Positions 26,688 to 39,268 of a DNA stretch of 53,635 bases are shown piece by piece. Under the pieces are notes generated by a model. It was not told where the DNA came from and searched no databases. It worked only from the letters and a program-made list of their open reading frames with translations. The position numbers and the translations under genes are program-made. Source of the DNA: a virus (Duplodnaviria > Heunggongvirae > Uroviricota > Caudoviricetes); the IMG/VR virus record IMGVR_UViG_2537561603_000004, positions 1-53,635 of that record. The stretch is one strand, 5' to 3'. Each line of letters begins with the position of its first letter. Position 1 is the first letter of the stretch.

Positions 26688-27020
26688 ATGACGAGCAAAG
26701 AAACCTTTACCCATTACCAGCCGCTGGGCAACAGTGACCCGGCTCATACCGCAACCGCGCCCGGCGGATTGAGTGCGAAAGCGCCTGCAATGACCCCGCT
26801 GATGCTGGACACCTCCAGCCGTAAGCTGGTTGCGTGGGATGGCACCACCGACGGTGCTGCCGTTGGCATTCTTGCGGTTGCTGCTGACCAGACCAGCACC
26901 ACGCTGACGTTCTACAAGTCCGGCACGTTCCGTTATGAGGATGTGCTCTGGCCGGAGGCTGCCAGCGACGAGACGAAAAAACGGACCGCGTTTGCCGGAA
27001 CGGCAATCAGCATCGTTTAA
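26688..27020 (+). CDS. D: Head decoration protein D
   Basis: 110-aa translation from the ATG at 26688 ([12 protein letters not shown]...) matches lambda gpD. Confidence 0.95.
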
Positions 27021-27040
27021 CTTTACCCTTCATCACTAAA

Positions 27041-27062
27041 GGCCGCCTGTGCGGCTTTTTTT
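27041..27062 (+). terminator. Hairpin plus T-run between D and E (possible attenuator)
   Basis: ggccgc-ctgt-gcggc followed by ttttttt. Confidence 0.35.
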
Positions 27063-27075
27063 ACGGGATTTTTTT

Positions 27076-27351
27076 ATGTCGATGTACACAACCGCCCAGC
27101 TGCTGGCGGCAAATGAGCAGAAATTTAAGTTTGATCCGCTGTTTCTGCGTCTCTTTTTCCGTGAGAGCTATCCCTTCACCACGGAGAAAGTCTATCTCTC
27201 ACAAATTCCGGGACTGGTAAACATGGCGCTGTACGTTTCGCCGATTGTTTCCGGTGAGGTTATCCGTTCCCGTGGCGGCTCCACCTCTGAATTTACGCCG
27301 GGATATGTCAAGCCGAAGCACTTAGCATGGCTTTCTGAGGCTTTCGTGTAG
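27076..27351 (+). pseudogene. E: Major capsid protein E, 5' portion (codons 1-81), interrupted by insertion at 27320/27321
   Basis: Translation MSMYTTAQLLAANEQKFKFDPLFL...TPGYVKPKH matches the lambda gpE N-terminus, then reads into unrelated sequence (LAWLSEAFV) and stops; the remainder of E resumes at 38043. Confidence 0.9.
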
Positions 27352-27448
27352 TTGCTGGTTTTTACACTTAATCTTTTGATAATAAAGAATAAGTCTATCT
27401 GGCGCTTTCACTGGATTTTCCTCGTTATCTGTGTGTTGCAATCATCTC

Positions 27449-27469
27449 TGTATTGCAGCTTGTATTGCT
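27449..27469 (+). repeat. Arm-type repeat, left copy (TGTATTGCAGCTTGTATTGCT)
   Basis: 21-bp sequence repeated in the same orientation at 37942-37962 (one mismatch), just inside each element end. Confidence 0.6.
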
Positions 27470-27483
27470 TTTTGGGGCTTAAA

Positions 27484-28719
27484 ATGGCTGGCGAGAACAA
27501 ACTGAGCGACAAAGCACTTAAAGGATATCTGGGGAAACCCAGAGAAAAGCAGATCACCATTGCTGATGGAAAGGGGCTTTCTATTCGTGTGAGTACCAAG
27601 GGGGCTGTGAGCTTTGTTTTCTTCTACAGGTTAGCAGGTGGCCGGGCTGCTCCGGTCTGGCTAACGTTGGGTAAATATCCTGATATGTCACTCAAACAGG
27701 CAAGGGAAAAGCGCGACGAGTGCCGTGGTTGGTTGGCTGACAAACGTGATCCGCGTATCCAGATTAAGATTCAGGCTGAAGAACGCTTAAAGCCGGTCAC
27801 AGTGGAGGATGCACTAAATTACTGGTATGAAAATTACTGTAAGGTGCGTCGTAAAACTCATGCTGTAACGCTTGGCAGATTTCGAAAGCATATTTTTCCC
27901 TATATCGGTCATTTGCCTGTAAATGACACTCACCTATATGAATGGCTGGACTGTTTTGACCGAATTAAACGTAATGCACCAGTTATGGCGGCGTATGTTT
28001 TTTCTGACACTAAATTAGCTCTTCGTTTTTGTCGGGTACGCCAGTACGCGACGTGTGATGCTTTAAAGGATTTGCGCATGAGTGATGTGGGGCAGATTGC
28101 AGGTAAGCGGGATCGGGTTCTGGATGAAGCCGAGCTGGGCCAGCTCTGGAAAGCAATTTTTGTCGAGCCTGATTTAAAACTAATGTCTGAATACACGCGA
28201 AAAATGTTTGTACTTTGTACAGTATTTGGATGTCGAATGAGTGAAGCCCGATTATCAGAATGGAGCGAATGGGATCTCGAAAGTTGGGTTTGGACTGTAC
28301 CAAAAGATCACTCAAAAACTGGTGTTGAAATCGTCAGACCAGTACCTGAAATTCTACGACAGTGGGTAACGGATGTTCACGAAGAGACAAAACATACTGG
28401 TTATGTGCTGGGAAGTCTGCGAATTAGAGAAAGCGTAAGCAAGATTGGGGGGAAAATCGGTAAACGTTTGGGCCATGAAAAACAATGGTCACTACACGAC
28501 CTTAGAAGAACGCTATCTACTCATCTAAGTGATCTCGGTGTTGAATTTTATGTAGTAGAACAACTGTTAGGCCATGCGCTACCTGGCGTGGCAGGTGTTT
28601 ACAACCGGAGTAAGTTTATGGCTAAAAAACTGGATGCTCTGGAACTCTGGACTACATATCTCAATAGCATCGCAGGTGCTGATTCAAAAGTGATAATCCT
28701 CAAACAAAAGGCTGGTTAA
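27484..28719 (+). CDS. Tyrosine integrase (P4-type, satellite-associated)
   Basis: 411-aa protein from the ATG at 27484; catalytic motifs HDLRRT and LLGHA...GVYNR; the N-terminal extension in the ORF track is unlikely to be coding. Confidence 0.85.
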   Translation: MAGENKLSDKALKGYLGKPREKQITIADGKGLSIRVSTKGAVSFVFFYRLAGGRAAPVWLTLGKYPDMSLKQAREKRDECRGWLADKRDPRIQIKIQAEERLKPVTVEDALNYWYENYCKVRRKTHAVTLGRFRKHIFPYIGHLPVNDTHLYEWLDCFDRIKRNAPVMAAYVFSDTKLALRFCRVRQYATCDALKDLRMSDVGQIAGKRDRVLDEAELGQLWKAIFVEPDLKLMSEYTRKMFVLCTVFGCRMSEARLSEWSEWDLESWVWTVPKDHSKTGVEIVRPVPEILRQWVTDVHEETKHTGYVLGSLRIRESVSKIGGKIGKRLGHEKQWSLHDLRRTLSTHLSDLGVEFYVVEQLLGHALPGVAGVYNRSKFMAKKLDALELWTTYLNSIAGADSKVIILKQKAG

Positions 28720-28720
28720 C

Positions 28721-28948
28721 ATGAAAAAAATGGCGATTGTTGATAAAAAGGGTCTGGAGTACATTCCTAACATCGATCGTATGATCCGTGAGAAAGAATG
28801 TCGGGAGCTAACCACTCTTGCGAACAGCACACGCTGGAAGCTGGAGAAGGAAGGGAAATTTCCTAAGCGGATCAAGATTGGCTCCACTGCTGTTGCATAT
28901 CGTCTTTCAGAAGTGCAGGCATGGATTCGAGGTGAGTGGGTAGTTTAA
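28721..28948 (+). CDS. AlpA-family transcriptional regulator/excisionase
   Basis: 75-aa protein with AlpA-like HTH (LANSTRWKLEKEGKFPKRIKIGSTAVAYRLSEVQAWI) directly after the integrase. Confidence 0.7.
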   Translation: MKKMAIVDKKGLEYIPNIDRMIREKECRELTTLANSTRWKLEKEGKFPKRIKIGSTAVAYRLSEVQAWIRGEWVV

Positions 28949-29017
28949 ATTATCTCAGAATAAAATATTATGAATTACTGATTTGAGAATTTGCACTCAA
29001 ATCAGTAATAACATTCT

Positions 29018-29554
29018 TTATAAGAGATTAAATCCAAATAAAGAGTAATCATATGCCGGGGTGCATTGCATCCCACTGAATATGCTGATATTTTTTTCTG
29101 TTTCTATCCTTTTTTCAATAAGTTGTTGTATATTTTTACAGTACAATTTGTGTGTGATGTTATTATCGTAAGCCTGATATAACAACGTCAATGTTGACGC
29201 TATGAAACATGCAGAAAGAAAATGAACTAGTACATGTGAACGTTTTTTGGTTGTCCATGATGCATTCGCTTGTGAAATATAAATCATTCTGAGAAGGATA
29301 ATGATGATAGACAGTAACAGACCACTCAATAAAATAAGCATTGGGTTTGCGTATTTTATTAATGGTTGAGAGCAAAAAACCATTATGGCTCCTGTGACTG
29401 CGTATGAGAAAAAGGAGTAATTAAACTTTTTACTTCTTCTCTCAAGTATTTTAATTTCATCTTGTGTGGGGGTTTTAGATGCCTCTAATATAAGTTTATT
29501 GAATGTTTCTATTATCTTGTTTTTTATGTTTGTGGCTATTTTTTTTAGATTCAT
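29018..29554 (-). CDS. Multi-pass membrane protein of unknown function (accessory cargo)
   Basis: 178-aa ORF with ~4 hydrophobic helices in a strongly AT-rich segment (about 28950-29870); own RBS (gggag). Confidence 0.5.
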   Translation of the reverse strand: MNLKKIATNIKNKIIETFNKLILEASKTPTQDEIKILERRSKKFNYSFFSYAVTGAIMVFCSQPLIKYANPMLILLSGLLLSIIIILLRMIYISQANASWTTKKRSHVLVHFLSACFIASTLTLLYQAYDNNITHKLYCKNIQQLIEKRIETEKNISIFSGMQCTPAYDYSLFGFNLL

Positions 29555-29904
29555 AGTATTCTAACTCCCTTAACTTATTTATTACTTTCTCTTTATGATA
29601 AGAGAGGGGAATGACTTGGTAAAGTGATTTGTAATTAATAATGATAATCCTTGCGATAAATATTTCTGCAAGTTATTTATCTGTTTGTTGCTATCTTGTT
29701 AAGCGTTGGGTGTGGTTTATGTTTGGAGCGACTTTATTTAATCGTGATTTTATGGATCTATATTTATATCCTGTAAGATAAGCGCATGTTAGTTCAGGAG
29801 TAGTGTCAGATAAAATTATTCGGAGTAGAACTACCTTTTCTGTTTATTGCCAGTATTTACATAGCAATGCGCCGTAGTTACTCACATCACGGCGCTGATA
29901 GTAA

Positions 29905-30207
29905 TTATTCAGATTCTTTGGCTTTACGCCGCTGGAGTTCTTCACGAGCGACGGCTACGAGTTGCCCGATTTCCTCCGCTGCCTTGATGCCGATTTGTTC
30001 GACCTTAGCTAAGGCATCCAGTGAAGACACGAGGGGATTTTCTCCGCTTCCTTCTGCCTGGCGGCGGGCGATCTCACCGCGCATGGCGGTTACTATGAAT
30101 CCGGCGTTGCTTTCGCCGTCCAGTTTTACGGATTCCATGCCCTCCATAACATCGTGGGGAACCCTGATCGTTGTCATTTGCGATTTTGCATTTTTGTATA
30201 CAGACAT
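29905..30207 (-). CDS. Ribbon-helix-helix (CopG/Arc-like) DNA-binding protein, putative repressor
   Basis: 100-aa ORF; N-terminal TTIRVPHDVMEGMESV pattern resembles an RHH beta-strand/helix; divergent from the rightward replication operon with operator-like repeats between. Confidence 0.45.
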   Translation of the reverse strand: MSVYKNAKSQMTTIRVPHDVMEGMESVKLDGESNAGFIVTAMRGEIARRQAEGSGENPLVSSLDALAKVEQIGIKAAEEIGQLVAVAREELQRRKAKESE

Positions 30208-30226
30208 AGTTAATCACCAATTTGTT

Positions 30227-30329
30227 ATGTGTATATCACTATACACAAAAGTGAGATATAAAAACACTTGCAATGTATATCACCACAATATAATGTATAT
30301 CTCACATCATGGTCGCTATGTATCTCACA
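30227..30329. promoter_or_regulatory. Divergent promoter region with repeated TGTAT(A)TC(A/T)CA operator-like motifs
   Basis: Direct repeats at 30227-30240, 30273-30284, 30293-30306 and 30318-30329, plus an inverted element (atatcac ... gtgagatat). Confidence 0.5.
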
Positions 30330-30415
30330 ATGATCGATTCATAAAAACGACGAAACCCGGCAGTGCGCGAACACTAACCGGGCTTCTAACCAAACCGTTA
30401 AACGAGGTAACGATT

Positions 30416-30781
30416 ATGGCTGGAACACAGCATACCCAAACTCACCCTAAATTTATATACACCTTTCTGGCACTACACCACGACCGCATGGCAGATGGAG
30501 CAACTACGGTACATGTTGCCGCTGACACGCTGGTTGATGCCCGCAAGATGGTTAAGGAGATGGGCTATACTGCGGCTTTCTGGAAAGGGCGTGAAGAAAA
30601 CACGCTGTTTATTCAGAAATGCGAAAACAATTTCATCTGGCGTTTTATCGCCCTGAGCACCGCACAACCACGCGTAATACACATCGAGGCCGCCAGCGAA
30701 CAGGAAGCCCGCCAGCAATTCCCAACTGGCTACGTGATGATATTCGCCGCCCGTATTCGTCAGGAGGTGTGCCATGAATGA
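30416..30781 (+). CDS. Hypothetical protein (first gene of rightward operon)
   Basis: 121-aa ORF from the ATG at 30416; the upstream part of the 304-aa track ORF spans the promoter and is rejected. Confidence 0.4.
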   Translation: MAGTQHTQTHPKFIYTFLALHHDRMADGATTVHVAADTLVDARKMVKEMGYTAAFWKGREENTLFIQKCENNFIWRFIALSTAQPRVIHIEAASEQEARQQFPTGYVMIFAARIRQEVCHE

Positions 30782-30998
30782 TCTTTATTTTAAAGTGCTG
30801 ACACATGCTGAAAACGCGCTCGTTTGTGGCAAAAATATGCGAGAAATCTTATCAACCTGGCTTGATGGGACAACAAATGCGGAACACGATGAACGGGATG
30901 CTAATTTAGCTGGAGCGTTAATTACGTTACTTGATCCTGTCATCAAAGAGCTGGATGAAGCTATAAAAATACACGACCAGAGCTATACCGGAGAATAA
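30774..30998 (+). CDS. Hypothetical protein
   Basis: 74-aa ORF with strong RBS (aggaggtg), overlapping the upstream gene stop. Confidence 0.4.
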   Translation: MNDLYFKVLTHAENALVCGKNMREILSTWLDGTTNAEHDERDANLAGALITLLDPVIKELDEAIKIHDQSYTGE

Positions 30999-31001
30999 AA
31001 A

Positions 31002-31289
31002 ATGAAAAATAAATTTTCTGGCTTTATTGCCAGCGGTCAAACTCATTCAAAAATCAGCCTTGGGGATATTTTCAAAGACAGCTATGGCTATCGGGTAAAG
31101 ATTATTTCGGTTGATGATCGTCGTGTCTCTTATTTGCGTGATGGTTATGATTTTGAATGTGTTATGCCGCGTCAGCAGTTCGAAAGAGATTTCATTCTGG
31201 TAAAAAATTGCAAGACAGATAATCAGAGGCGTGCCGCAGGCTATATCCGTAAAATTCGGGCAATGTTAGTTGCCGGAGGTAACAAATGA
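31002..31289 (+). CDS. Hypothetical protein
   Basis: 95-aa ORF overlapping the primase start. Confidence 0.4.
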   Translation: MKNKFSGFIASGQTHSKISLGDIFKDSYGYRVKIISVDDRRVSYLRDGYDFECVMPRQQFERDFILVKNCKTDNQRRAAGYIRKIRAMLVAGGNK

Positions 31290-33106
31290 AACGTGCTCCG
31301 AACTTAAAATACCAACCGCGCGACAAAATGACGGAAGTCATCATTTTTGCTGGCAGTGATGCCTGGAGCCATGCAAAAGAATGGAATGAATGGGCAGGTA
31401 AGCATATTGCAGCAGATGATACACCACCAGTCATTCTGGGTACGGAACAACTGGAAAACCTGGATGATATGCAAATTATCGATGAAGGCCGTCATTATGT
31501 GCGTGTTTATCGTGCCGGAAAGATTGCAGAGAAAAGTCTGACGAAGGTTGCGACATTACTTGCTATTGCAGGCGTAAAGGAAGCACGTTGTTACCGTAGC
31601 TTTGTTGATCGAGAGCCTGAAGACTGGACTCCGCGCCTTGTCGGCCTAAAAGCTGAAGCGGAGCATGGGGAAAGTCTGGTGATTGAACTGCCAGTTAAGA
31701 AGGCTGAGCGCAAAAATGACGAGCGTGCTTCATCTTTGGCGTTGAATCAGATGGGGGCCAGCCAGCGCGGTGAAGTTCTCCTTGCACATTACGGCGGCGA
31801 ACTGGCAATCAATGCCGACTCTGACACCGTTCATCATTACAACGGCGTTGTATGGGAGCCGGTTCAGGATAAAGAGTTACAGCGTGCTATGGCGCAGATT
31901 TTCATTGATGCGGAGATCAGCTATTCGCAGAACGCTATTAAATCGGCGGTAGATACCATGAAGTTAAGTTTGCCTGTAATGGGGAATACAGCCCGTAACC
32001 TGATTGGATTCAGTAACGGGGTATTTGATACCAGAACTGGTAACTTTCGGGAGCATAACAAAAACGACTGGTTGTTAATTGCCAGTGAATTACCTTTCAG
32101 CCCACCAGCAGAGGGGGAAACGCTGGCAACACATGCGCCGAATTTCTGGAAGTGGTTGCGCCGTTCGGTGGCTGAGAATGACCGCAAGGCAGATCGCGTA
32201 CTGGCGGCATTATTCATGGTGCTGGCGAACCGGTACGACTGGCAGTTATTCATTGAGGTAACAGGGCCGGGGGGAAGTGGTAAAAGTGTGATGGCGGAGA
32301 TTTGCACCATGCTGGCGGGTAAGGCTAATACAGTATCAGCAAGCATGAAGGCGCTGGAAGATGCAAGGGAACGTGCGTTAGTGGTTGGCTTTTCGCTGAT
32401 TATCATGCCGGATATGACCCGCTACGCTGGTGATGGGGCAGGGATTAAGGCCATTACAGGCGGTGACAAGGTGGCAATTGACCCGAAACACAAAGCCCCC
32501 TATTCAACGCGTATTCCGGCAGTAGTGCTGGCGGTTAACAATAACGCCATGTCATTCAGTGACCGCAGCGGGGGGATCTCACGTCGTCGGGTGATATTCA
32601 ATTTTTCGGAAGTTGTACCGGAGAACGAACGCGATTCGATGCTGGCGGAAAAAATAGAAGGTGAGCTGGCGGTAGTGATTCGCCATCTGCTTACACGGTT
32701 TGCTGATCAGGACGAAGCCAGACGCCTGTTATATGAGCAGCAGAAATCTGAAGAAGCACTGGCGATAAAGCGAGAGGGGGATTCGCTGGTGGACTTCTGC
32801 GGCTATCTCATGGCATCGGTAATGTGTGATGGCCTGTTAGTGGGTAATGCTGAAATTGTGCCATTCAGCCCACGCAGGTATCTCTATCATGCCTATCTGG
32901 CTTATATGAGGGCACATGGGTTTGGTAAACCTGTAACACTGACGCGCTTCGGTAAAGATATGCCGGGGGCAATGGCGGAATATGGCAGGGAGTATATGAA
33001 ACGGAAAACGAAGCACGGTTTGCGTTCAAACGTGACACTGACGGAGGAATCAGAAGACTGGATGCCATCATGTGTATCGGTCACTAATGACGATAGCAAA
33101 AATTAA
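31286..33106 (+). CDS. Primase-helicase (P4/PICI-type Pri-Rep, SF3 helicase C-terminal domain)
   Basis: 606-aa protein with Walker A (GPGGSGKS) and following Walker B-like region; RBS ggaggt; followed immediately by iterons. Confidence 0.75.
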   Translation: MKRAPNLKYQPRDKMTEVIIFAGSDAWSHAKEWNEWAGKHIAADDTPPVILGTEQLENLDDMQIIDEGRHYVRVYRAGKIAEKSLTKVATLLAIAGVKEARCYRSFVDREPEDWTPRLVGLKAEAEHGESLVIELPVKKAERKNDERASSLALNQMGASQRGEVLLAHYGGELAINADSDTVHHYNGVVWEPVQDKELQRAMAQIFIDAEISYSQNAIKSAVDTMKLSLPVMGNTARNLIGFSNGVFDTRTGNFREHNKNDWLLIASELPFSPPAEGETLATHAPNFWKWLRRSVAENDRKADRVLAALFMVLANRYDWQLFIEVTGPGGSGKSVMAEICTMLAGKANTVSASMKALEDARERALVVGFSLIIMPDMTRYAGDGAGIKAITGGDKVAIDPKHKAPYSTRIPAVVLAVNNNAMSFSDRSGGISRRRVIFNFSEVVPENERDSMLAEKIEGELAVVIRHLLTRFADQDEARRLLYEQQKSEEALAIKREGDSLVDFCGYLMASVMCDGLLVGNAEIVPFSPRRYLYHAYLAYMRAHGFGKPVTLTRFGKDMPGAMAEYGREYMKRKTKHGLRSNVTLTEESEDWMPSCVSVTNDDSKN

Positions 33107-33116
33107 ACTTATGGAA

Positions 33117-33345
33117 TAACTGTTCACCACTGTTCACCCTGTCATAAATATCTTTTATATCAGTATATTATAGGGTGAACAGTTATTTATGAACTGTTCA
33201 CCAAACTATTCACTGTTCACCTTTTTGATTGTTTATTGAGCTTCAAGGGTGAACAGTGGTGAACAGTTGGTGAATAGTTTTTGTGAAACTGTTCACCAAT
33301 TAACATTATGAATTAAAAGAGAAAATATCAAAAGGTGAACAGGTG
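33117..33345. repeat. Replication origin iterons (CTGTTCACC / GGTGAACAG, about 10 copies in both orientations)
   Basis: Dense array of 9-bp repeats immediately downstream of the primase-helicase gene. Confidence 0.8.
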
Positions 33346-33393
33346 AAGGGTTAAAACGCAAAAATTTTAATTTACTGCTGTGAGATAAAGCCT

Positions 33394-33639
33394 ATGACAG
33401 CGAAGCACACAAAAAAATCACAATCGCACGCCCTTGATTTGACGGAACACTGGTTAAGGGTGTCGATAAAAATCATCGACCGCAACGCCGGGGAAGGATA
33501 CGCGAAAGCACATCCCGAACTGATTAGCGCATTCATGACAACGGCGGCTGCAAACTTTGCCACTCTGACCGAACGGGAGATTGCTGAAGCGGAGGAAGTG
33601 ACAACAATCAATATTAAGTCCGGAGAGCAGGCAGCATGA
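33394..33639 (+). CDS. Hypothetical protein
   Basis: 81-aa ORF between ori and ssb. Confidence 0.35.
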   Translation: MTAKHTKKSQSHALDLTEHWLRVSIKIIDRNAGEGYAKAHPELISAFMTTAAANFATLTEREIAEAEEVTTINIKSGEQAA

Positions 33640-34085
33640 CGGCGCAAATATCAGTTTACGGGCGGTTGGTGGACGACCCGCAGACAAAACAGACCAGCAA
33701 GGGCACCCCCATGACGCTGGCGCGTATGGCGGTATCACTGCCCTGCAGTCAGTCGGATGACGGTCAGGCGACGATGTGGTTATCTGTCCTGGCGTTTGGC
33801 AGACAAGCCGACGCGCTGGCAAAGCATCACAAAGGCGAACTCCTGAGCGTGGCGGGTAACATGCAGATGAGCCAGTGGACTGGACAGAACGGCGAAACGC
33901 GGCAGGGCTGGCAGGTTATCGCAGACAGCGTAATCAGTGCGCGATCGGTGCGACCGGGCGGCAATAAAGGCCAACAGGGGCAGGCTACTGACGCACTGAA
34001 CAGAGCAAAACAACAGGCAGATCAGCAAGGAAGCCAGCCACCAGTGGGAGATAATGAGCAATGGGGAGATGATATCCCGTTTTAA
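33636..34085 (+). CDS. ssb: Single-stranded DNA-binding protein (SSB)
   Basis: 149-aa protein with OB-fold-like N-terminus (ISVYGRLVDDPQ...), Gly/Gln-rich linker and the SSB-signature acidic tail DDIPF. Confidence 0.7.
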   Translation: MTAQISVYGRLVDDPQTKQTSKGTPMTLARMAVSLPCSQSDDGQATMWLSVLAFGRQADALAKHHKGELLSVAGNMQMSQWTGQNGETRQGWQVIADSVISARSVRPGGNKGQQGQATDALNRAKQQADQQGSQPPVGDNEQWGDDIPF

Positions 34086-34302
34086 ATATTGCCAATAAAA
34101 AAAGGCCGGAAAAAATAAATTTTCCGGCATGCTACATAAATCCCGACCAAAGGGAGTGAAGATATTAACACTAATTTTCCGCACTGAAGTTGTCACCCCA
34201 AAACTTTATACAACATTGCACTCGGTTGCATGTATTCGCATGACAAATATCGGTGATAGCATATATCCACAATTATTTTTAATGAATGCAAAGAGGATGC
34301 GT

Positions 34303-35343
34303 ATGGTTGATTTATATTCGCCTACTCAGCTTGTACAGGTGGTTAATGCTGTAGATGTACAAAAACAACTAAATGCGTTGTTTACCAGTTTGTTTTTTAC
34401 TCGCTCGGTAATGTTTGAATCGCGCGATATTATTCTTGATACAATCGACGATCCAAATATCCCAATTGCAGCGTTTTGTTCTCCTATGGTGGGTAGTAAA
34501 GTTTCACGTGACGAAGGGTACGAATCAAAAACAATTCGTCCAGGCTATATGAAGCCGAAAAGCAGCATTGATCCAAATAAGTTAGCTGTGCGCCCTGCTG
34601 GTGTATCACCTGAGCAATACAATGCTTTTGGGGCGCGTAATATTAAAGTTAAACAGGCGATTGTAAATCAAGCTAAAGCTATTCGTGCACGTATTGAATG
34701 GCTTGCTGTTCAGGCAATCACAACGGGGAAAAATATCATTGAGGGCGATGGTATTGAACGTTATGAGCTGGACTGGAATATTAAACCACAAAATATCATC
34801 ACTCAGTCTGGCGGTGCTGAGTGGTCAGGTAAGGATAAAGAAACTTTTGATCCAAATGATGATATTGAGAGCTACGCAGAATTTAGTGAGGGCGTCACTA
34901 ATATTATCATTATGGGCGGTAATGTATGGAAGAAATACCGTTCATTCAGAGCGATAAAAGAGGCTCTGGATACCCGTCGTGGTTCTAATTCCGAACTGGA
35001 AACGGCCCTTAAAGACCTTGGTGATTCGGTGAGTTTTAAAGGGTATATGGGCGATGTTGCGATTGTTGTTTACAGCGGGCGTTATACCGACGAGGACGGA
35101 ACAGAAAAACATTTCCTTGATCCTGATTTGATGGTGCTTGGCAATACGGCTCTTCAGGGGATTGTCGCCTATGGCGGTATTCAGGATCCGGAGCTAATCC
35201 GAATGGGGCTGACTAAAGCCGAACTTGCACCGAAAAACTATATTGTGCCTGGTGATCCGGCTATTGAATATGTGCAGACACATTCAGCACCACAGCCAAT
35301 ACCGGCCCGCATCAATCGTTTTGTTACCGTTCGCATTGGCTAA
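34303..35343 (+). CDS. Element-encoded major capsid protein, divergent homologue of lambda gpE
   Basis: ~346-aa protein with clear but partial similarity to lambda gpE along its length (e.g. TRRGSNSELETA.KDLG...GDVAIVVYSG); ATG at 34303 with RBS aagagga. Confidence 0.8.
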   Translation: MVDLYSPTQLVQVVNAVDVQKQLNALFTSLFFTRSVMFESRDIILDTIDDPNIPIAAFCSPMVGSKVSRDEGYESKTIRPGYMKPKSSIDPNKLAVRPAGVSPEQYNAFGARNIKVKQAIVNQAKAIRARIEWLAVQAITTGKNIIEGDGIERYELDWNIKPQNIITQSGGAEWSGKDKETFDPNDDIESYAEFSEGVTNIIIMGGNVWKKYRSFRAIKEALDTRRGSNSELETALKDLGDSVSFKGYMGDVAIVVYSGRYTDEDGTEKHFLDPDLMVLGNTALQGIVAYGGIQDPELIRMGLTKAELAPKNYIVPGDPAIEYVQTHSAPQPIPARINRFVTVRIG

Positions 35344-35352
35344 GGGGGAGCA

Positions 35353-35694
35353 ATGGCTACTCATTACACTGAACTCATGGCTGGCACTGAAGCACTGGTG
35401 ACTACGCTGGGGATATTTTCAGCTAATAAAGGGGTAATTCCTGCATTTACGCCACTGATGCAGGAAGATGCAACAGGTGCACTGGTGGTATGGGATGGTT
35501 CGAGCGTAGGTAAAGCGGTTTATGTTTCCGCTGTACAAATCGACACCGCGAAAAAAACACAGGCTCAGGTCTATAAGACAGGTGTCTTAAATGTTGATGC
35601 TCTGAACTGGCCTGAGTCTGTTAAAGAACTGTCAGTAAAGGTTGCAGCGTTTGTTGGCTCAGGTATTTCTGTTCAGCCGCTGGCTCGTGTGTAA
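35353..35694 (+). CDS. Element-encoded decoration protein, divergent homologue of lambda gpD
   Basis: 113-aa protein alignable to lambda gpD (PAFTPLMQEDATGALVVWDGSSVGKAV... versus [27 protein letters not shown]...). Confidence 0.7.
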   Translation: MATHYTELMAGTEALVTTLGIFSANKGVIPAFTPLMQEDATGALVVWDGSSVGKAVYVSAVQIDTAKKTQAQVYKTGVLNVDALNWPESVKELSVKVAAFVGSGISVQPLARV

Positions 35695-35705
35695 AGGGGG
35701 ATACA

Positions 35706-36089
35706 ATGCAGAATGATTACAATGACCTTAAGCCAATTGCCGAAATGATGTACCCGAATCAAGCTGTAGAGGAATTAAAAGCTATCGCTGACAAAATGTG
35801 TTTAAGCGAGCGCCTTGTTGATATGAATCAGGTGATGGAAATTACAACCCTGAGTCGTCGTACACTGCTAAACCTTGAGGCTAGTGGAGAGTTCCCGGAG
35901 CGTGTGCAGGTTACGGAAGGGCGTAAGGCCTGGTATTTAAGTGAAGTGATCGACTGGATAAATAATATTCCTCGCGCTTCTGAATATTGCCGCGTACCTG
36001 TCCCAAAAAAGCCAGATGCGGCGCTATGCCTCAAGATTGAGCGTGTACGCCGCAATGCACGGGATGGTCGCTATAAGCTGATTGGTTGA
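35706..36089 (+). CDS. AlpA/MerR-like winged-HTH protein upstream of the element cos site
   Basis: 127-aa protein; segment MEITTLSRRTLLNLEASGEFPERVQVTEGRKAWYLSEVIDWI is AlpA-like. Confidence 0.5.
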   Translation: MQNDYNDLKPIAEMMYPNQAVEELKAIADKMCLSERLVDMNQVMEITTLSRRTLLNLEASGEFPERVQVTEGRKAWYLSEVIDWINNIPRASEYCRVPVPKKPDAALCLKIERVRRNARDGRYKLIG

Positions 36090-36109
36090 TGAAATTAGGG
36101 CCCGCTCTG

Positions 36110-36320
36110 GCTGGCGGGTCCTTTCCGGCGATCCAGAACGTTACGGGGCGTCAGGCGCGCAGTTTTTTGCTATTTGTGAAAATTTTCCTGTTTAAGGCGT
36201 TTCCGTTCTTCTTCGCCGTAACTTAATGTTTTTATTAAAAACACCCCCTAAAAAGAAAGGAAACGACAGGTGCTAAAAACAGGCTTTTTGGCCTCTGTCG
36301 TTTCCTTTCTCTGGTTTTGT
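36110..36320 (+). other. Second cos-like site (cosQ/cosB conserved, cosN region divergent)
   Basis: ~210 bp alignable to the prophage cos at 20912-21125; the cosN-equivalent reads gggcgtcaggcg instead of gggcggcgacct. Confidence 0.8.
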
Positions 36321-36687
36321 TGCCATCCGTCGCGGTCTATCACCAGAAAAAATCTTATCCCTGAGTTGAATCAGGCACTATTCAGAAGCGGCCAATAACG
36401 CGCCGCTAGCTTCACTTCATAGTTATGGCCTACTTCTGCGCCATTGCAATTGCTTTATGCGCCTTGATGGTGGAATATAGAGCAAGCAGTTTGCGAATAA
36501 CAAAGTTTCATATGTTTTTTGCTGTGTGGCTAGACAACTTTACAGCAGAGTTTTGTGTCAGTTCTTTATGTGTGCAAGCAAGCTTGAGGGGGAATTACTT
36601 CTGGCTGCATCTTTGCTTAAGAACAGCAATAATTTAATCATAAGGAAATGTATATAAGCCTGATTAAATTTCAGGCTTATTGAAATG

Positions 36688-37830
36688 TTAACTCCTTATT
36701 AGAGAGTAAATTCCATCCTCTTTAAGGAAGTCTATTACTTCAAAGAATGAGATAAAGAATTCCCAAGAACCAAAAGCATATGCATGAATTTCGTAAGGTG
36801 CAAAATGGAATCTAAATCCATCACTATTTATTGTGAACGAGTCTAAGTTACTATCCATGATACCCGTTGCAAACGTACTAATGTCGTCCTCACTTGGTTT
36901 TTCACCAGTTTTCTCCCAAAATTCACGAGCTGATTCAGAGATTATTTTTTGTTTTATCTTATTAATCGCTTCTTGCTCTTTCCCTTCGGTAAATACATCC
37001 CATAAACTAAATTTGTATGCGTAGTCATCCTTGGTTATTACGAAATTACTAGTTTCAAAATGACTGTTAGGGTGTGCTGCTCCCGCACCATACCAATGTA
37101 CGGAATGAAGGATGCTCATGACATTTTCGTTACAGTATGAGATGTTATAACTTTCATTATAGGAACTAGTGTAAGTGTGTTTATATTCTTCATCCCAATA
37201 TGGTGTTCCTGGCCATAGTGATGTGCGTTCAGAAAAAATATGTAAAGCCGCTTTTCCTGAAAAGTAATCACTAATGAGTTTTGCTGATTTCGGTAATGTA
37301 TGGCTTTCAATTCTTGGATATGCTATTTCAATTTCATGCCCTGGGATCTTGTTATATTCTTCCTTGAAAACCTCGCTGCTAAAGTTAAATGGCCCATAAG
37401 TGATACCTTGAGATATTTCAAGTTTTTGTTGCGATGCTGCTAATCTTAAAGATCTAGATAAAATGTCCCAACCATCATTTCTCTTAAAATCAATGAATTG
37501 GAGCTTGCTTGATATGTAGGCGGGTACTTCGCAATCATCAATAAGTAATGGTATCACGAACACATCATCTGGTTTGTAATACTTTAGTTTATCAATGGCG
37601 TCATTTATTTCGCGGCGAATATAACCATTTTTCTGAGTGCTCACTTTGCTAAGGATAAGGATTATCAAGTTTGAATTAGCGAAGTTTTTTTGGATTTCAT
37701 AATCCCAGTTTACGCCAGCGGGTATATCTTTTACATCCATCCAAGGGGAATATCCTCCACTTTTTAGCCTTTCATAGATTTCTTCAGTTATCGTTTCATC
37801 TTCTTTTGCATGAGCAAGAAAAATTTTCAT
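36688..37830 (-). CDS. TIR-domain protein with uncharacterised C-terminal domain (candidate anti-phage effector)
   Basis: 380-aa ORF; N-terminal ~120 aa fit a bacterial TIR fold (MKIFLAHAKEDE...LKSGGYSPWMDVKDIPAGVNWDYEI...SNLIILILSKVS...REINDAI); AT-rich, own RBS (aagga); between the element cos and its right end. Confidence 0.7.
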   Translation of the reverse strand: MKIFLAHAKEDETITEEIYERLKSGGYSPWMDVKDIPAGVNWDYEIQKNFANSNLIILILSKVSTQKNGYIRREINDAIDKLKYYKPDDVFVIPLLIDDCEVPAYISSKLQFIDFKRNDGWDILSRSLRLAASQQKLEISQGITYGPFNFSSEVFKEEYNKIPGHEIEIAYPRIESHTLPKSAKLISDYFSGKAALHIFSERTSLWPGTPYWDEEYKHTYTSSYNESYNISYCNENVMSILHSVHWYGAGAAHPNSHFETSNFVITKDDYAYKFSLWDVFTEGKEQEAINKIKQKIISESAREFWEKTGEKPSEDDISTFATGIMDSNLDSFTINSDGFRFHFAPYEIHAYAFGSWEFFISFFEVIDFLKEDGIYSLIRS

Positions 37831-37941
37831 TGAATATTCCTTTATAATTTAACTAATTAAGTGAAGGAGGCTTTACTTGGCTGTGTTAGAAAAAATTCGG
37901 TTTGTTTTTTGTACGATGCCAAGAAGGCTTTTCCCTAACCA

Positions 37942-37962
37942 TGTATTGCAGCATGTATTGCT
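37942..37962 (+). repeat. Arm-type repeat, right copy (TGTATTGCAGCATGTATTGCT)
   Basis: Same-orientation copy of the 27449-27469 repeat. Confidence 0.6.
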
Positions 37963-38042
37963 ACGTAATTCTGCACCCTCTCATTTATAAAATAAATCTC
38001 TGTTAAATCAAGTATCTTTTTTCTATTTGACTCATGTAACCC

Positions 38043-38828
38043 AAGCATGAAGTGAATCCGCAGATGACCCTGCGTCGCCTGCCGGATGAAGATCCGCAGA
38101 ATCTGGTGGACCCGGCTTACCGCCGCCGTCGCATCATCATGCAGAACATGCGTGACGAAGAGCTGGCCATTGCTCAGGTCGAAGAGATGCAGGCAGTTTC
38201 TGCCGTGCTTAAGGGCAAATACACCATGACCGGTGAAGCCTTCGATCCGGTTGAGGTGGATATGGGCCGCAGTGAGGAGAATAACATCACGCAGTCCGGC
38301 GGCACGGAGTGGAGCAAGCGTGACAAGTCCACGTATGACCCGACCGACGATATCGAAGCCTACGCGCTGAACGCCAGCGGTGTGGTGAATATCATCGTGT
38401 TCGATCCGAAAGGCTGGGCGCTGTTCCGTTCCTTCAAAGCCGTCAAGGAGAAGCTGGATACCCGTCGTGGCTCTAATTCCGAGCTGGAGACAGCGGTGAA
38501 AGACCTGGGTAAAGCGGTGTCCTATAAGGGGATGTATGGCGATGTGGCCATCGTCGTGTATTCCGGACAGTACGTGGAAAACGGCGTCAAAAAGAACTTC
38601 CTGCCGGACAACACGATGGTGCTGGGGAACACTCAGGCACGCGGTCTGCGCACCTATGGCTGCATTCAGGATGCGGACGCACAGCGCGAAGGCATTAACG
38701 CCTCTGCCCGTTACCCGAAAAACTGGGTGACCACCGGCGATCCGGCGCGTGAGTTCACCATGATTCAGTCAGCACCGCTGATGCTGCTGGCTGACCCTGA
38801 TGAGTTCGTGTCCGTACAACTGGCGTAA
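38043..38828 (+). pseudogene. E: Major capsid protein E, 3' portion (codons ~80-341), separated from 5' portion by the insertion
   Basis: Translation KHEVNPQMTLRRLPDEDPQNL...FVSVQLA matches lambda gpE from residue ~80 to the C-terminus, in frame with the core. Confidence 0.9.
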
Positions 38829-38869
38829 TCATGGCCCTTCGGGGCCATTGTTTCTCTGTGGAGGAGTCC

Positions 38870-39268
38870 ATGACGAAAGATGAACTGATTGCCCGTCTCC
38901 GCTCGCTGGGTGAACAACTGAACCGTGATGTCAGCCTGACGGGGACGAAAGAAGAACTGGCGCTCCGTGTGGCAGAGCTGGAAGAGGAGCTTGATGACAC
39001 GGATGAAACTGCCGGTCAGGACACCCCTCTCAGCCGGGAAAATGTGCTGACCGGACATGAAAATGAGGTGGGATCAGCGCAGCCGGATACCGTGATTCTG
39101 GATACGTCTGAACTGGTCACGGTCGTGGCACTGGTGACGCTGCATACTGATGCACTTCACGCCACGCGGGATGAACCTGTGGCATTTGTGCTTCCGGGAA
39201 CGGCGTTCCGTGTCTCTGCCGGTGTGGCAGCCGAAATGACAGAACGTGGCCTGGCCAGAATGCAATAA
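38870..39268 (+). CDS. FI: DNA-packaging protein FI
   Basis: 132-aa translation (MTKDELIARLRSLGEQLNRDVSL...) matches lambda FI. Confidence 0.9.
   Translation: MTKDELIARLRSLGEQLNRDVSLTGTKEELALRVAELEEELDDTDETAGQDTPLSRENVLTGHENEVGSAQPDTVILDTSELVTVVALVTLHTDALHATRDEPVAFVLPGTAFRVSAGVAAEMTERGLARMQ

What the first reader, a model, noticed from the sequence alone, without database searches (positions are those of the whole stretch)
29905..30415. Putative genetic switch: RHH-type repressor divergent from the replication operon with repeated operator motifs
Between the leftward RHH-like gene (29905-30207) and the rightward operon leading to the primase-helicase lies a ~200 bp AT-rich region with at least four copies of TGTAT(A)TC(A/T)CA and an inverted element. 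This is the architecture expected for the master repressor and early promoter of a satellite, the point at which a helper signal would derepress replication.
Basis: partly seen in the sequence, partly recalled or inferred. Interest (0 to 1): 0.55.

Follow-up and report, generated by a model that had tools for sequence, protein, structure and literature searches.

The report
Satellite repressor switch with antisense RNA
A phage satellite sitting inside a prophage capsid gene carries a small DNA-binding repressor gene, its repeated binding sites over two back-to-back promoters, and an overlooked antisense RNA gene. Together they most likely keep the satellite's replication genes silent, and the same undescribed module is present in the best-studied E. 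coli satellite.

Summary
The 100-aa ORF at 29905-30207 (-) is a YlcI/YnfO-family protein whose N-terminal 55 residues model as a ribbon-helix-helix (RHH) fold. The 208-bp gap before the Icd-like/primase operon holds five copies of TGTAT(A)TC(A/T)CAC, four direct and one inverted.

In 23 related islands from 12 or more genera the layout is conserved. One site pair brackets the -10 of a leftward promoter. Other sites follow the -35 and cover the -10 of the rightward promoter.

The site sequence falls into nine classes. These track exactly residues 11 and 13 of the RHH beta-strand (Arg15 is invariant). They do not track AlpA, the Icd-like protein or the primase. This argues that the RHH protein binds the repeats and represses both promoters.

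An ~80-nt cis-antisense RNA (30342-30421, -) covers the Shine-Dalgarno and start codon of the first operon gene. It has a conserved -10 and strong covariation, and it matches E. coli SymR in searches run in both directions.

The island is a known type, a helper-embedded PICI in the capsid gene. I found no description of the switch itself. Direct derepression by a helper remains inference, because published work shows AlpA drives induction.

The parts
29905..30207 (-). Gene for a 100-aa YlcI/YnfO-family protein. It has an N-terminal RHH DNA-binding domain: strand ~11-16, helix 18-27, G31-E32-S33 turn, helix 34-52. A long C-terminal helix spans 58-99.
29871..29897 (.). Conserved hairpin GCGCCGT-N13-ACGGCGC just past the RHH stop codon. 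It is a possible terminator or transcript-end structure.
   Evidence: Sequence. The same hairpin is present in EcCICFT073. Its function was not tested.
30214..30218 (-). Shine-Dalgarno of the RHH gene (GGTGA on the minus strand).
   Evidence: Read from the sequence. It lies 6 nt upstream of the ATG that ends at 30207.
30227..30262 (.). Left operator O_L. Half-site S1 is (ATG)TGTATATCAC at 30227-30239 and the inverted half-site S2 is GTGAGATATA(AA) at 30251-30262. Together they bracket the leftward -10.
   Evidence: The same two-half-site arrangement, 21-23 bp apart, is found in all 23 loci.
30238..30243 (-). -10 of the leftward promoter P_L (TATAGT on the minus strand). The predicted start is ~30231, which gives a ~24-nt leader.
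   Evidence: A TAnnnT element sits at the same place between the half-sites in nearly all orthologues (TATAAT, TATACT, TATATT...), read. No -35 is recognisable. This is inferred.
30268..30273 (+). -35 of the rightward promoter P_R (TTGCAA).
   Evidence: It aligns with TTGACA, TTGACG or TTGACC in the orthologues, with a 17-18 nt spacer to a TAnnnT.
30274..30283 (+). Operator site S3 (TGTATATCAC), immediately after the -35 and inside the promoter spacer.
30291..30296 (+). -10 of P_R (TAATGT). The predicted start is ~30303.
   Evidence: conserved position. It was not called by the generic scan.
30294..30305 (+). Operator site S4 (TGTATATCTCAC), overlapping the -10 and the predicted +1 of P_R.
30319..30328 (+). 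Operator site S5 (TGTATCTCAC), at about +16 to +25 of the P_R transcript.
   Evidence: It is conserved in the two other islands of the same specificity class.
30342..30421 (-). SymR-like cis-antisense RNA of ~80 nt. Hairpin 1 carries the anti-Shine-Dalgarno CCUC in its loop. Hairpin 2 (30352-30386) plus a U-rich tail forms the terminator. The RNA is complementary to the SD (30404-30407) and the ATG (30416-30418) of the Icd-like gene.
   Evidence: Rfam RF01809 at 35.3 bits, full length, E 4.4e-5 locally, below the gathering score of 61. Over 21 sequences, 96% of cells are paired, 16 of 25 pairs show double changes, and 0 of 500 shuffles reach this. There are 86 G.U cells on the minus strand against 2 on the plus strand. 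MFE is -33.8 kcal/mol, z = -5.4. A model built without symR finds K-12 symR.
30429..30434 (-). -10 of the antisense-RNA promoter (TATGCT on the minus strand), embedded in codons 5-7 of the Icd-like gene. It lies 7 nt upstream of the predicted start at A30421.
   Evidence: The T, A and final T of the hexamer are invariant in all 21 aligned sequences, K-12 symR included. In symR the experimentally mutated -10 lies at the equivalent place (PMC1891008).
30416..30781 (+). First gene of the rightward operon, a 121-aa protein with an Icd-like C-terminal domain. Its stop overlaps the next start (30774), and the later genes are similarly packed up to the primase.
   Evidence: NF033153 at 77.8 bits. ORF coordinates.

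Best explanation
This is the immunity and early-control region of a Gram-negative phage-inducible chromosomal island (a helper-embedded PICI), and it has two layers.

Layer 1, transcription. The 100-aa RHH protein binds as dimers to 10-bp sites of the form (G/A)TGT + ATATC. One inverted pair (S1/S2) brackets the -10 of its own leftward promoter, which gives autoregulation. Sites S3, S4 and S5 fill the spacer, cover the -10/+1 and sit in the early transcribed region of the rightward promoter. That promoter drives the operon Icd-like, orf, DUF4222, primase-helicase. Binding there represses replication. The long C-terminal helix probably links dimers bound about two helical turns apart.

Layer 2, translation. 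A constitutive ~80-nt SymR-like antisense RNA starts 3 nt beyond the Icd-like start codon and ends at a terminator hairpin. It pairs with the Shine-Dalgarno and AUG of the first gene. It would block that gene's translation, and through the tightly overlapping genes it would probably dampen the whole operon.

What is shown in silico: the fold, the positions of the sites relative to conserved promoter elements, the protein/operator co-variation, and the RNA structure, strand and promoter conservation.

What is inferred: actual binding, the sign of regulation, oligomerisation, RNA expression, and how induction overrides the switch. The override is probably AlpA-driven or helper late read-through transcription entering from the left.
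For: - Layout: in 23 loci the sites keep fixed positions around a TTGACA-like -35, a 17-18-nt spacer and a TAnnnT -10.
- Specificity: there are nine operator classes. Each corresponds to one residue pair at positions 11/13. These positions show 7 and 5 different residues across classes and no variation within classes, while the inward-facing positions 12, 14 and 16 do vary within classes.
- A prediction was tested. Two further M-T-R proteins, from Enterobacter and Yersinia, turned out to have TGTAT(A)TCTCAC sites.
- Other candidate binders are excluded. The window and L040 share 88% primase and 93% RHH identity but have different operators. The window and L038 share 83% Icd-like identity but differ in class. 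AlpA of L043 is 83% identical to that of L002, which is in another class.
- The real replication iterons lie elsewhere, as 10 copies of CTGTTCACC at 33120-33342.
- RNA evidence.
Against: - There is no experimental binding or expression data.
- The operators and the N-terminal codons are less than 130 bp apart, so part of the co-variation could reflect inheritance as one block. The alternating 11/13 versus 12/14/16 pattern argues against pure linkage but does not exclude it.
- The window's P_R hexamers are weak (TTGCAA/TAATGT) and were not called by the scan. P_L has no -35.
- In this specificity class S3-S5 are direct repeats, unlike the inverted pairs of the other classes.
- AlpA over-expression alone induces EcCICFT073, which carries the module. 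The RHH is therefore not a sufficient block when AlpA is high.
- The Rfam hit is below the gathering score.
Confidence: 0.68

Rival explanations
1. The repeats are bound by a different island or helper protein (AlpA, the Icd-like protein that PHROGs labels 'transcriptional repressor', the primase, or a helper factor). The RHH protein would have another job.
For: AlpA is the only experimentally shown regulator of these islands. The Icd-like protein hits PHROG families annotated as 'transcriptional repressor'. No binding data exist for any candidate.
Against: Operator class does not follow AlpA, Icd-like or primase identity. It follows residues 11/13 of the RHH strand exactly. The primase's P4-type iterons are at 33120-33342. 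Islands with similar lambdoid helpers carry different operator classes.
Confidence: 0.08
2. The RHH protein is an autoregulating antitoxin-like or local regulator of its own leftward unit only (the RHH gene plus downstream leftward genes). The rightward operon would be controlled only by AlpA and the antisense RNA.
For: The best structural and Pfam neighbours are RHH antitoxins. Many islands have small leftward ORFs just downstream of the RHH gene. O_L brackets the RHH gene's own -10.
Against: Three of the five sites lie on the rightward promoter (spacer, -10/+1, early leader) in every locus. The leftward partner genes are not conserved: here a 178-aa membrane ORF lies 350 bp away, while other islands have unrelated small ORFs or Bro/AntA genes. 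No toxin family was detected.
Confidence: 0.1
3. The conserved hairpin region acts in the sense mRNA, as a 5'-UTR element or attenuator of the Icd-like operon, rather than as an antisense RNA gene.
For: The hairpins necessarily also exist in the sense leader. No expression data are available.
Against: There are 86 G.U cells on the minus strand against 2 on the plus strand, so pairing falls from 96% to 80% if read on the plus strand. The U-rich tail follows the hairpin only on the minus strand. An invariant TAnnnT lies 7 nt upstream of the predicted minus-strand start. The region matches SymR in both directions.
Confidence: 0.07
4. The repeats are chance features of an AT-rich spacer, or they are replication iterons.
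For: The region is AT-rich, at 31% GC.
Against: Simulations give P(>=2 hits) = 1.5e-4, and 4-5 hits are observed. The positions are conserved in 23 loci. The iterons are elsewhere.
Confidence: 0.01

Closest known systems
RHH repressors with arrayed operators: P22 Arc/Mnt, plasmid pMV158 CopG, pSM19035 omega, F/pED208 TraM
   Same: There is a small N-terminal strand-helix-helix domain with a G-x-S turn. The predicted fold matches CopG-family, omega, AmrZ, TraM and Arc structures. Several short sites, direct or inverted, overlap promoter hexamers. As in TraM and Mnt, a C-terminal helical part could join dimers (own knowledge of those proteins).
   Different: No Pfam RHH model reaches threshold, and the family (NF041551 YlcI/YnfO) has no characterised member. 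Half-sites lie about 21-23 bp apart, bracketing a -10, rather than 11 bp apart. Binding has not been tested.
pMV158 CopG + RNA II, and R1 CopB + CopA: a protein repressor plus a countertranscript controlling a replication gene (own knowledge)
   Same: The two-layer logic is the same. An RHH or other small repressor acts on the promoter, and a short cis-antisense RNA with a loop-exposed anti-SD acts on the translation start of the operon that leads to the replication protein.
   Different: Here the repressor is transcribed divergently and is not part of the repressed operon. The antisense target is an Icd-like gene several genes upstream of the primase. The element is an integrated satellite, not a plasmid.
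E. coli SymE/SymR type I toxin-antitoxin (Kawano, Aravind & Storz 2007, PMC1891008)
   Same: The RNA has the same size and the same two-hairpin shape. It starts 3 nt beyond the target start codon, and its -10 is embedded in the target ORF at the same distance. The matches run both ways: RF01809 hits the window at 35.3 bits, and a PICI-only model hits K-12 symR at 33 bits at the annotated coordinates.
   Different: The hit is below Rfam's gathering score of 61. The target protein is Icd-like, not the AbrB-fold SymE. The sense promoter carries RHH operators rather than a LexA box.
Phage P1 immI (c4 RNA - icd - ant) and P4 CI RNA immunity (own knowledge; P4 summarised in PMC10111431)
   Same: An antisense RNA blocks the ribosome-binding site of an icd-type first gene, and downstream genes depend on that gene's translation. 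The Icd-like domain is present (NF033153, 77.8 bits).
   Different: No C4/isrK-family hit appears in the island at E <= 1. The RNA here is cis-encoded on the opposite strand, not processed from the sense transcript.
SaPI Stl/Str divergent master-repressor switch of Gram-positive PICIs (summarised in PMC6092414)
   Same: The repressor gene is divergent from the operon that leads to the primase/rep gene, and it sits right of int in a satellite.
   Different: The fold is RHH, not an HTH-type Stl. Derepression by a helper protein has not been shown. In Gram-negative PICIs AlpA is the demonstrated inducer.
Helper-embedded PICI Eco567.11capE (Tommasini, Mageeney & Williams 2023, PMC10111431)
   Same: It is the same kind of island: ~10.7 kb with int-alpA, a primase, SSB, and its own capsid and decoration genes, inserted in the lambda-E-like capsid gene of a prophage.
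   Different: That paper's text, as searched here, describes integration, Bro, replication and late zones and C4/isrK RNAs. It does not mention the RHH gene, its operators or a SymR-like RNA.

Membership tests
YlcI/YnfO family (NCBIfam NF041551) | Score above the curated cut-off of the N-terminal 42-residue model. | tested here: met
   70.5 bits against a cut-off of 30, residues 8-49. The RefSeq annotation agrees.
Ribbon-helix-helix (MetJ/Arc/CopG) superfamily | An N-terminal beta-strand followed by two helices, with a G-x-S/T/N turn between the helices. | tested here: met
Ribbon-helix-helix (MetJ/Arc/CopG) superfamily | Significant match to a curated RHH sequence family. | tested here: not met
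   Only sub-threshold PF07704 hits were found: 16.3 bits against a cut-off of 28.3, with a best E of 0.0011 across 14 of 20 homologues. PDB sequence searches gave nothing relevant.
Ribbon-helix-helix (MetJ/Arc/CopG) superfamily | A homodimer forms the two-stranded ribbon that reads the major groove of repeated sites. | not testable with these tools
   Only monomers could be modelled. Indirect support comes from operator class tracking the alternate strand residues 11/13 (with R15 invariant) but not 12/14/16.
SymR antisense RNA (Rfam RF01809) | Score at or above the Rfam gathering threshold. | tested here: not met
   35.3 bits against a gathering score of 61. The match is full length (1-77), with E 0.0012 in 12 kb and 4.4e-5 in 451 nt.
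SymR antisense RNA (Rfam RF01809) | A cis-antisense RNA covering the SD and start codon, starting just inside the target ORF, with its promoter in the ORF and two hairpins, the second being the terminator. | tested here: met
   Alignment with K-12 symR shows an invariant -10 TAnnnT and an AG(C/U)CAU start. The structure shows covariation and strand asymmetry. The reciprocal model hit falls on the annotated symR. Expression itself was not tested.
Gram-negative PICI / helper-embedded PICI | int followed by co-oriented alpA, a primase-type replication module, a size of ~10-15 kb, and insertion within a helper prophage late gene. | tested here: met
   The capsid gene is split at about 27321/38039, and the gene set matches 11capE as described in PMC10111431.
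SaPI-type Stl master repressor | Repression is lifted when a specific helper-phage protein binds the repressor. | not testable with these tools
   No data. Published work on EcCICFT073 points to AlpA induction instead.
P1 c4 / P4 CI immunity RNA (Rfam C4, isrK) | Match to the C4 or isrK covariance models. | tested here: not met
   No such hit in 27000-39000 at E <= 1.
Replication iterons | The repeats track the initiator protein and lie at the origin. | tested here: not met
   Primases that are 88% identical go with different repeat classes. The P4-type CTGTTCACC array is at 33120-33342.

The most novel reading that the evidence does not exclude
Gram-negative PICIs, including the model island EcCICFT073, do have a master immunity switch, contrary to the current picture in which only the activator AlpA is known. 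The switch would be a YlcI/YnfO-family RHH repressor that comes in at least nine heteroimmune specificity classes, set by two beta-strand residues. It would be backed by a SymR-type antisense RNA. The chromosomal symE-symR 5' region of E. coli would then share ancestry with this satellite module.
Probability: 0.4. Interest if true: 0.75.

Novelty: new member of a known kind. Interest (0 to 1): 0.55.

Why it matters
[quoted passage not shown] It also calls the different induction strategies of Gram-positive and Gram-negative PICIs 'a mystery' (PMC6092414). The module described here gives a concrete candidate repressor, with operators and promoters mapped to the base.

The same module is present in EcCICFT073, where the tools to test it already exist. 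Parts of it match DNA in about a third of complete E. coli genomes (1841 of 5426).

The residue-to-operator code (positions 11/13 against the variable 5-mer) is a ready-made specificity-swap experiment for an uncharacterised RHH family. It also predicts immunity groups among co-resident satellites.

The SymR-like RNA enlarges a one-locus Rfam family into a widespread mobile-element family. It also suggests where symR came from.

In kind, however, this is an ordinary repressor/operator plus countertranscript circuit.

Tried and rejected
- Sequence searches of the PDB, with the single protein and with a profile, gave no informative hit.
- The generic promoter/terminator scan called no site in the intergenic region. 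It also missed the antisense terminator, whose tail is interrupted (UUUCGUCGUUUUU).
- LexA-box reading of TGT-N-ACA: rejected by eye, because the spacing varies (N5, N7, N8, N10) and the motif changes between islands.
- Iteron or origin reading: rejected.
- AlpA, Icd-like protein or primase as the binder: rejected by lack of association.
- A helper-encoded RHH paralogue that could poison the repressor: none in the window. The 60-aa helper ORF near the terminase is unrelated. A tblastn search of 50,697 phage genomes found no match.
- Search for the 10-bp att core reported for 11capE: no exact repeat of 9 bp or more between 27250-27450 and 37850-38150. The island ends were therefore taken from the split capsid annotation.
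- Literature searches for YlcI/YnfO, Icd-like plus antisense, PICI plus RHH, and EcCICFT073 plus repressor found no description of this module. The library holds open-access papers only.

Full report
**Context**

The window is an E. coli lambdoid prophage. A ~10.7-kb island is inserted in its lambda-E-like major capsid gene. The N-terminal capsid fragment ends near 27321 and the C-terminal fragment resumes near 38039.

The island genes, in order, are:
- int and alpA (28721-28948)
- a leftward membrane ORF (29018-29554)
- the leftward 100-aa ORF of the finding (29905-30207)
- a rightward operon: Icd-like (30416-30781), orf, DUF4222, D5/P4-type primase-helicase (31286-33106)
- a small orf and SSB
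- the island's own major capsid and decoration genes
- a second AlpA-like gene and a leftward TIR-domain gene

Sixty-seven complete E. coli genomes carry 80% or more of the island.

This is the 'helper-embedded PICI' type in the capsid-E site, described by Tommasini, Mageeney and Williams (PMC10111431). That paper's text does not mention the leftward small gene, its repeats or an antisense RNA.

The five copies are S1 30230-39 (+), S2 30251-60 (inverted), S3 30274-83 (+), S4 30294-305 (+) and S5 30319-28 (+). There is also a palindrome at 30225-50.

Three of the window's four TGTATATC octamers, and its only TGTATCTC, lie in this 100 bp. Composition-matched simulations give 0.024 hits per region, with P(>=2) = 1.5e-4.

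**The protein**

It belongs to the uncharacterised YlcI/YnfO family (NF041551, 70.5 bits; phrog_6522). Homologues occur across Enterobacterales.

AlphaFold models show an extended segment at 11-17, helices at 18-27 and 34-52, and a long helix at 58-99. The full-length model gave uninformative fold searches.

The sequence has the R-x-P strand end and a G-E-S inter-helix turn. No Pfam RHH family reaches threshold. I therefore accept 'RHH-type' at the level of predicted fold, not of a curated sequence family.

**Comparative anatomy**

I collected 23 loci with this gene from Xenorhabdus, Photorhabdus, Enterobacter, Serratia, Yersinia, Scandinavium, Pantoea, Lelliottia, Phytobacter, a Pseudomonas assembly, a MAG and several E. 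coli islands.

All share one layout. Reading rightwards from the RHH start codon:
- A half-site, then a conserved TATACA-like element, which read leftwards is a TAnnnT -10.
- An inverted half-site.
- An A-run, then a TTGACA-like -35.
- A half-site that starts at the first base of the spacer.
- A TAnnnT -10 at 17-18 nt from the -35.
- Another half-site, then a conserved hairpin region.
- The SD and ATG of an Icd-like gene.

In the window, the rightward promoter P_R is TTGCAA (30268-73), a 17-nt spacer, then TAATGT (30291-96). The -10 of the leftward promoter P_L is TATAGT (reverse complement of 30238-43). These hexamers are weak, and the generic scan did not call them. Their placement rests on the alignment.

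**Who binds the repeats**

The half-sites have a constant part, (G/A)(G/T)TGT, and a variable 5-mer that defines nine classes.

| Operator class | Loci | RHH residues 11, 13, 15 |
|---|---|---|
| ATATC | window, Enterobacter L042, Yersinia L043 | M, T, R |
| GTTTC | eight loci from four genera plus E. coli | L, T, R |
| AAGAC / AATTAC | four loci | S, T, R |
| GATTC | two loci | Q, S, R |
| GCATT / GTATT | two loci | I, N, R |
| four singleton classes, including EcCICFT073 | one locus each | EcCICFT073: A, K, R |

Each class corresponds to one combination of RHH residues 11 and 13, and Arg15 is invariant.

Position by position, residues 11 and 13 are the most diverse across classes (7 and 5 different residues) and never vary within a class. 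Positions 12, 14 and 16 do vary within classes. This alternation is what a beta-strand with one DNA-reading face predicts.

The L042 and L043 loci were fetched as a test of the rule, and both conformed.

Operator class does not follow the other candidate proteins:
- AlpA of L043 is 83% identical to that of L002, which is in another class, but only 39% identical to the window's, which is in the same class.
- The Icd-like proteins of the window and L038 are 83% identical, yet the classes differ.
- The primases of the window and L040 are 88% identical, yet the classes differ.

The island's real origin iterons are ten CTGTTCACC copies at 33120-33342.

The remaining caveat is physical linkage, because the N-terminal codons and the operators lie within 130 bp of each other.

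Rfam gives a full-length but sub-threshold match to SymR on the minus strand at 30349-30421 (35.3 bits against a gathering score of 61).

I aligned 20 island sequences plus K-12 symR. The alignment shows an invariant TAnnnT -10, located 7 nt upstream of an AG(C/U)CAU start. In the window this is TATGCT (reverse complement of 30429-34), inside codons 5-7 of the Icd-like gene. It also shows two hairpins:
- 96% of cells are paired, against about 40% when the partners are slid.
- 16 of 25 pairs have compensatory double changes.
- 0 of 500 shuffles reach the observed values.

There are 86 G.U cells on the minus strand against 2 on the plus strand. A U-rich tail is present only on the minus strand. 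The structure is therefore selected in the antisense transcript.

The window RNA folds at -33.8 kcal/mol (z = -5.4), with the anti-SD CCUC in the loop of hairpin 1.

A covariance model built without symR finds the held-out EcCICFT073 copy at 67 bits. It also finds K-12 symR at its annotated coordinates at 33 bits.

In symER the -10 at the equivalent place was shown by mutation to drive SymR, and SymR represses symE translation (PMC1891008).

**Mechanism proposed**

The RHH protein autoregulates P_L and represses P_R. The antisense RNA blocks translation of the first gene. Because the operon genes overlap (30774/30781, 31286/31289), the RNA probably dampens the whole replication operon.

The same logic is known from pMV158 CopG/RNA II and from P1 c4-icd-ant (my own knowledge). 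Binding, the sign of regulation and RNA expression are all untested.

**Induction**

EcCICFT073 carries the module with a 59-aa RHH that lacks the C-terminal helix. In that island AlpA over-expression alone triggers excision and replication, and helpers act by inducing alpA (PMC6092414).

The RHH is therefore more likely overridden downstream of AlpA than sensed directly by the helper. One route would be transcription from PalpA running antisense through the RHH gene into the operon.

In this embedded island, antiterminated helper late transcription enters from the left in the same direction. This is inference, consistent with PMC10111431.

**Novelty**

The island type is known, and the circuit is of a known kind. 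What I could not find described is the module itself: the assignment of the YlcI/YnfO family as an RHH regulator, its operator code, and the SymR-like RNA in PICIs. The search covered an open-access library only.

The 2018 PICI paper explicitly left open whether Gram-negative PICIs have a repressor.

Noticed in passing
window 27049-27321 and 38039-38828; island ~27322-38038: The island interrupts the helper prophage's lambda-E-like major capsid gene and carries its own capsid (34129-35343) and decoration (35353-35694) genes. This is the published helper-embedded PICI configuration (11capE type).
   Followed up: yes
window 33120-33342: Ten copies of CTGTTCACC, in both orientations, lie between the primase stop and the next ORF. 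This is almost certainly the island's replication origin. From memory, the phage P4 alpha protein binds TGTTCACC iterons.
   Followed up: partly
L046 7474-8053 (NC_004431.1 1380473-1381052): The model island EcCICFT073 has the same RHH / operator / antisense-RNA / Icd-like module. Its RHH protein is only 59 aa and lacks the long C-terminal helix. Its operators are of a different class (GGGCCACACC), with strand residues A11/K13. Both small genes carry newer RefSeq locus tags (C_RS30120, C_RS30125), so they may be absent from the original annotation; I did not check this.
   Followed up: partly
L044 1815-1925 (E. coli K-12 symE-symR): The symR gene and the first codons of symE align base-for-base with the island's antisense-RNA region. 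The shared features are the -10, the AGYCAU start, UGRUUAG and GUGUU(C/G)GCGCAC. This suggests that the symER 5' region and the satellite module share ancestry.
   Followed up: partly
L008, L009, L011, L012, L033 (just downstream of P_R): A perfect DnaA-box consensus, TTATCCACA, follows the last operator site in five orthologous islands. It is absent from the window.
   Followed up: no
window 30274-30328: In the window's specificity class (also L042 and L043) the three sites on P_R are direct repeats spaced 20 and 25 bp apart. In every other class the site after the -10 is inverted relative to the one after the -35. This is unexplained.
   Followed up: partly
window 29871-29897: The hairpin GCGCCGT-N13-ACGGCGC lies immediately after the RHH stop codon. 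It has no clear U-tail on either strand and is conserved in EcCICFT073.
   Followed up: no
window 36688-37830 (-) and 35706-36089 (+): A 380-aa TIR-domain gene, likely anti-phage cargo, sits at the right end of the island. It is preceded by a second AlpA/excisionase-like gene (phrog_2790).
   Followed up: no
window 31286-33106: The primase ORF is intact here (606 aa), but the near-identical copy in NZ_AP025677.1 is annotated as a frameshifted pseudogene.
   Followed up: no
E. coli genome search: Parts of the 877-bp module match in 1841 of 5426 complete E. coli genomes. The antisense-RNA / Icd-like start segment is the most widely conserved piece. It includes 35 plasmid places and remnants with no annotated gene (for example NZ_CP034958.1).
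   Followed up: partly
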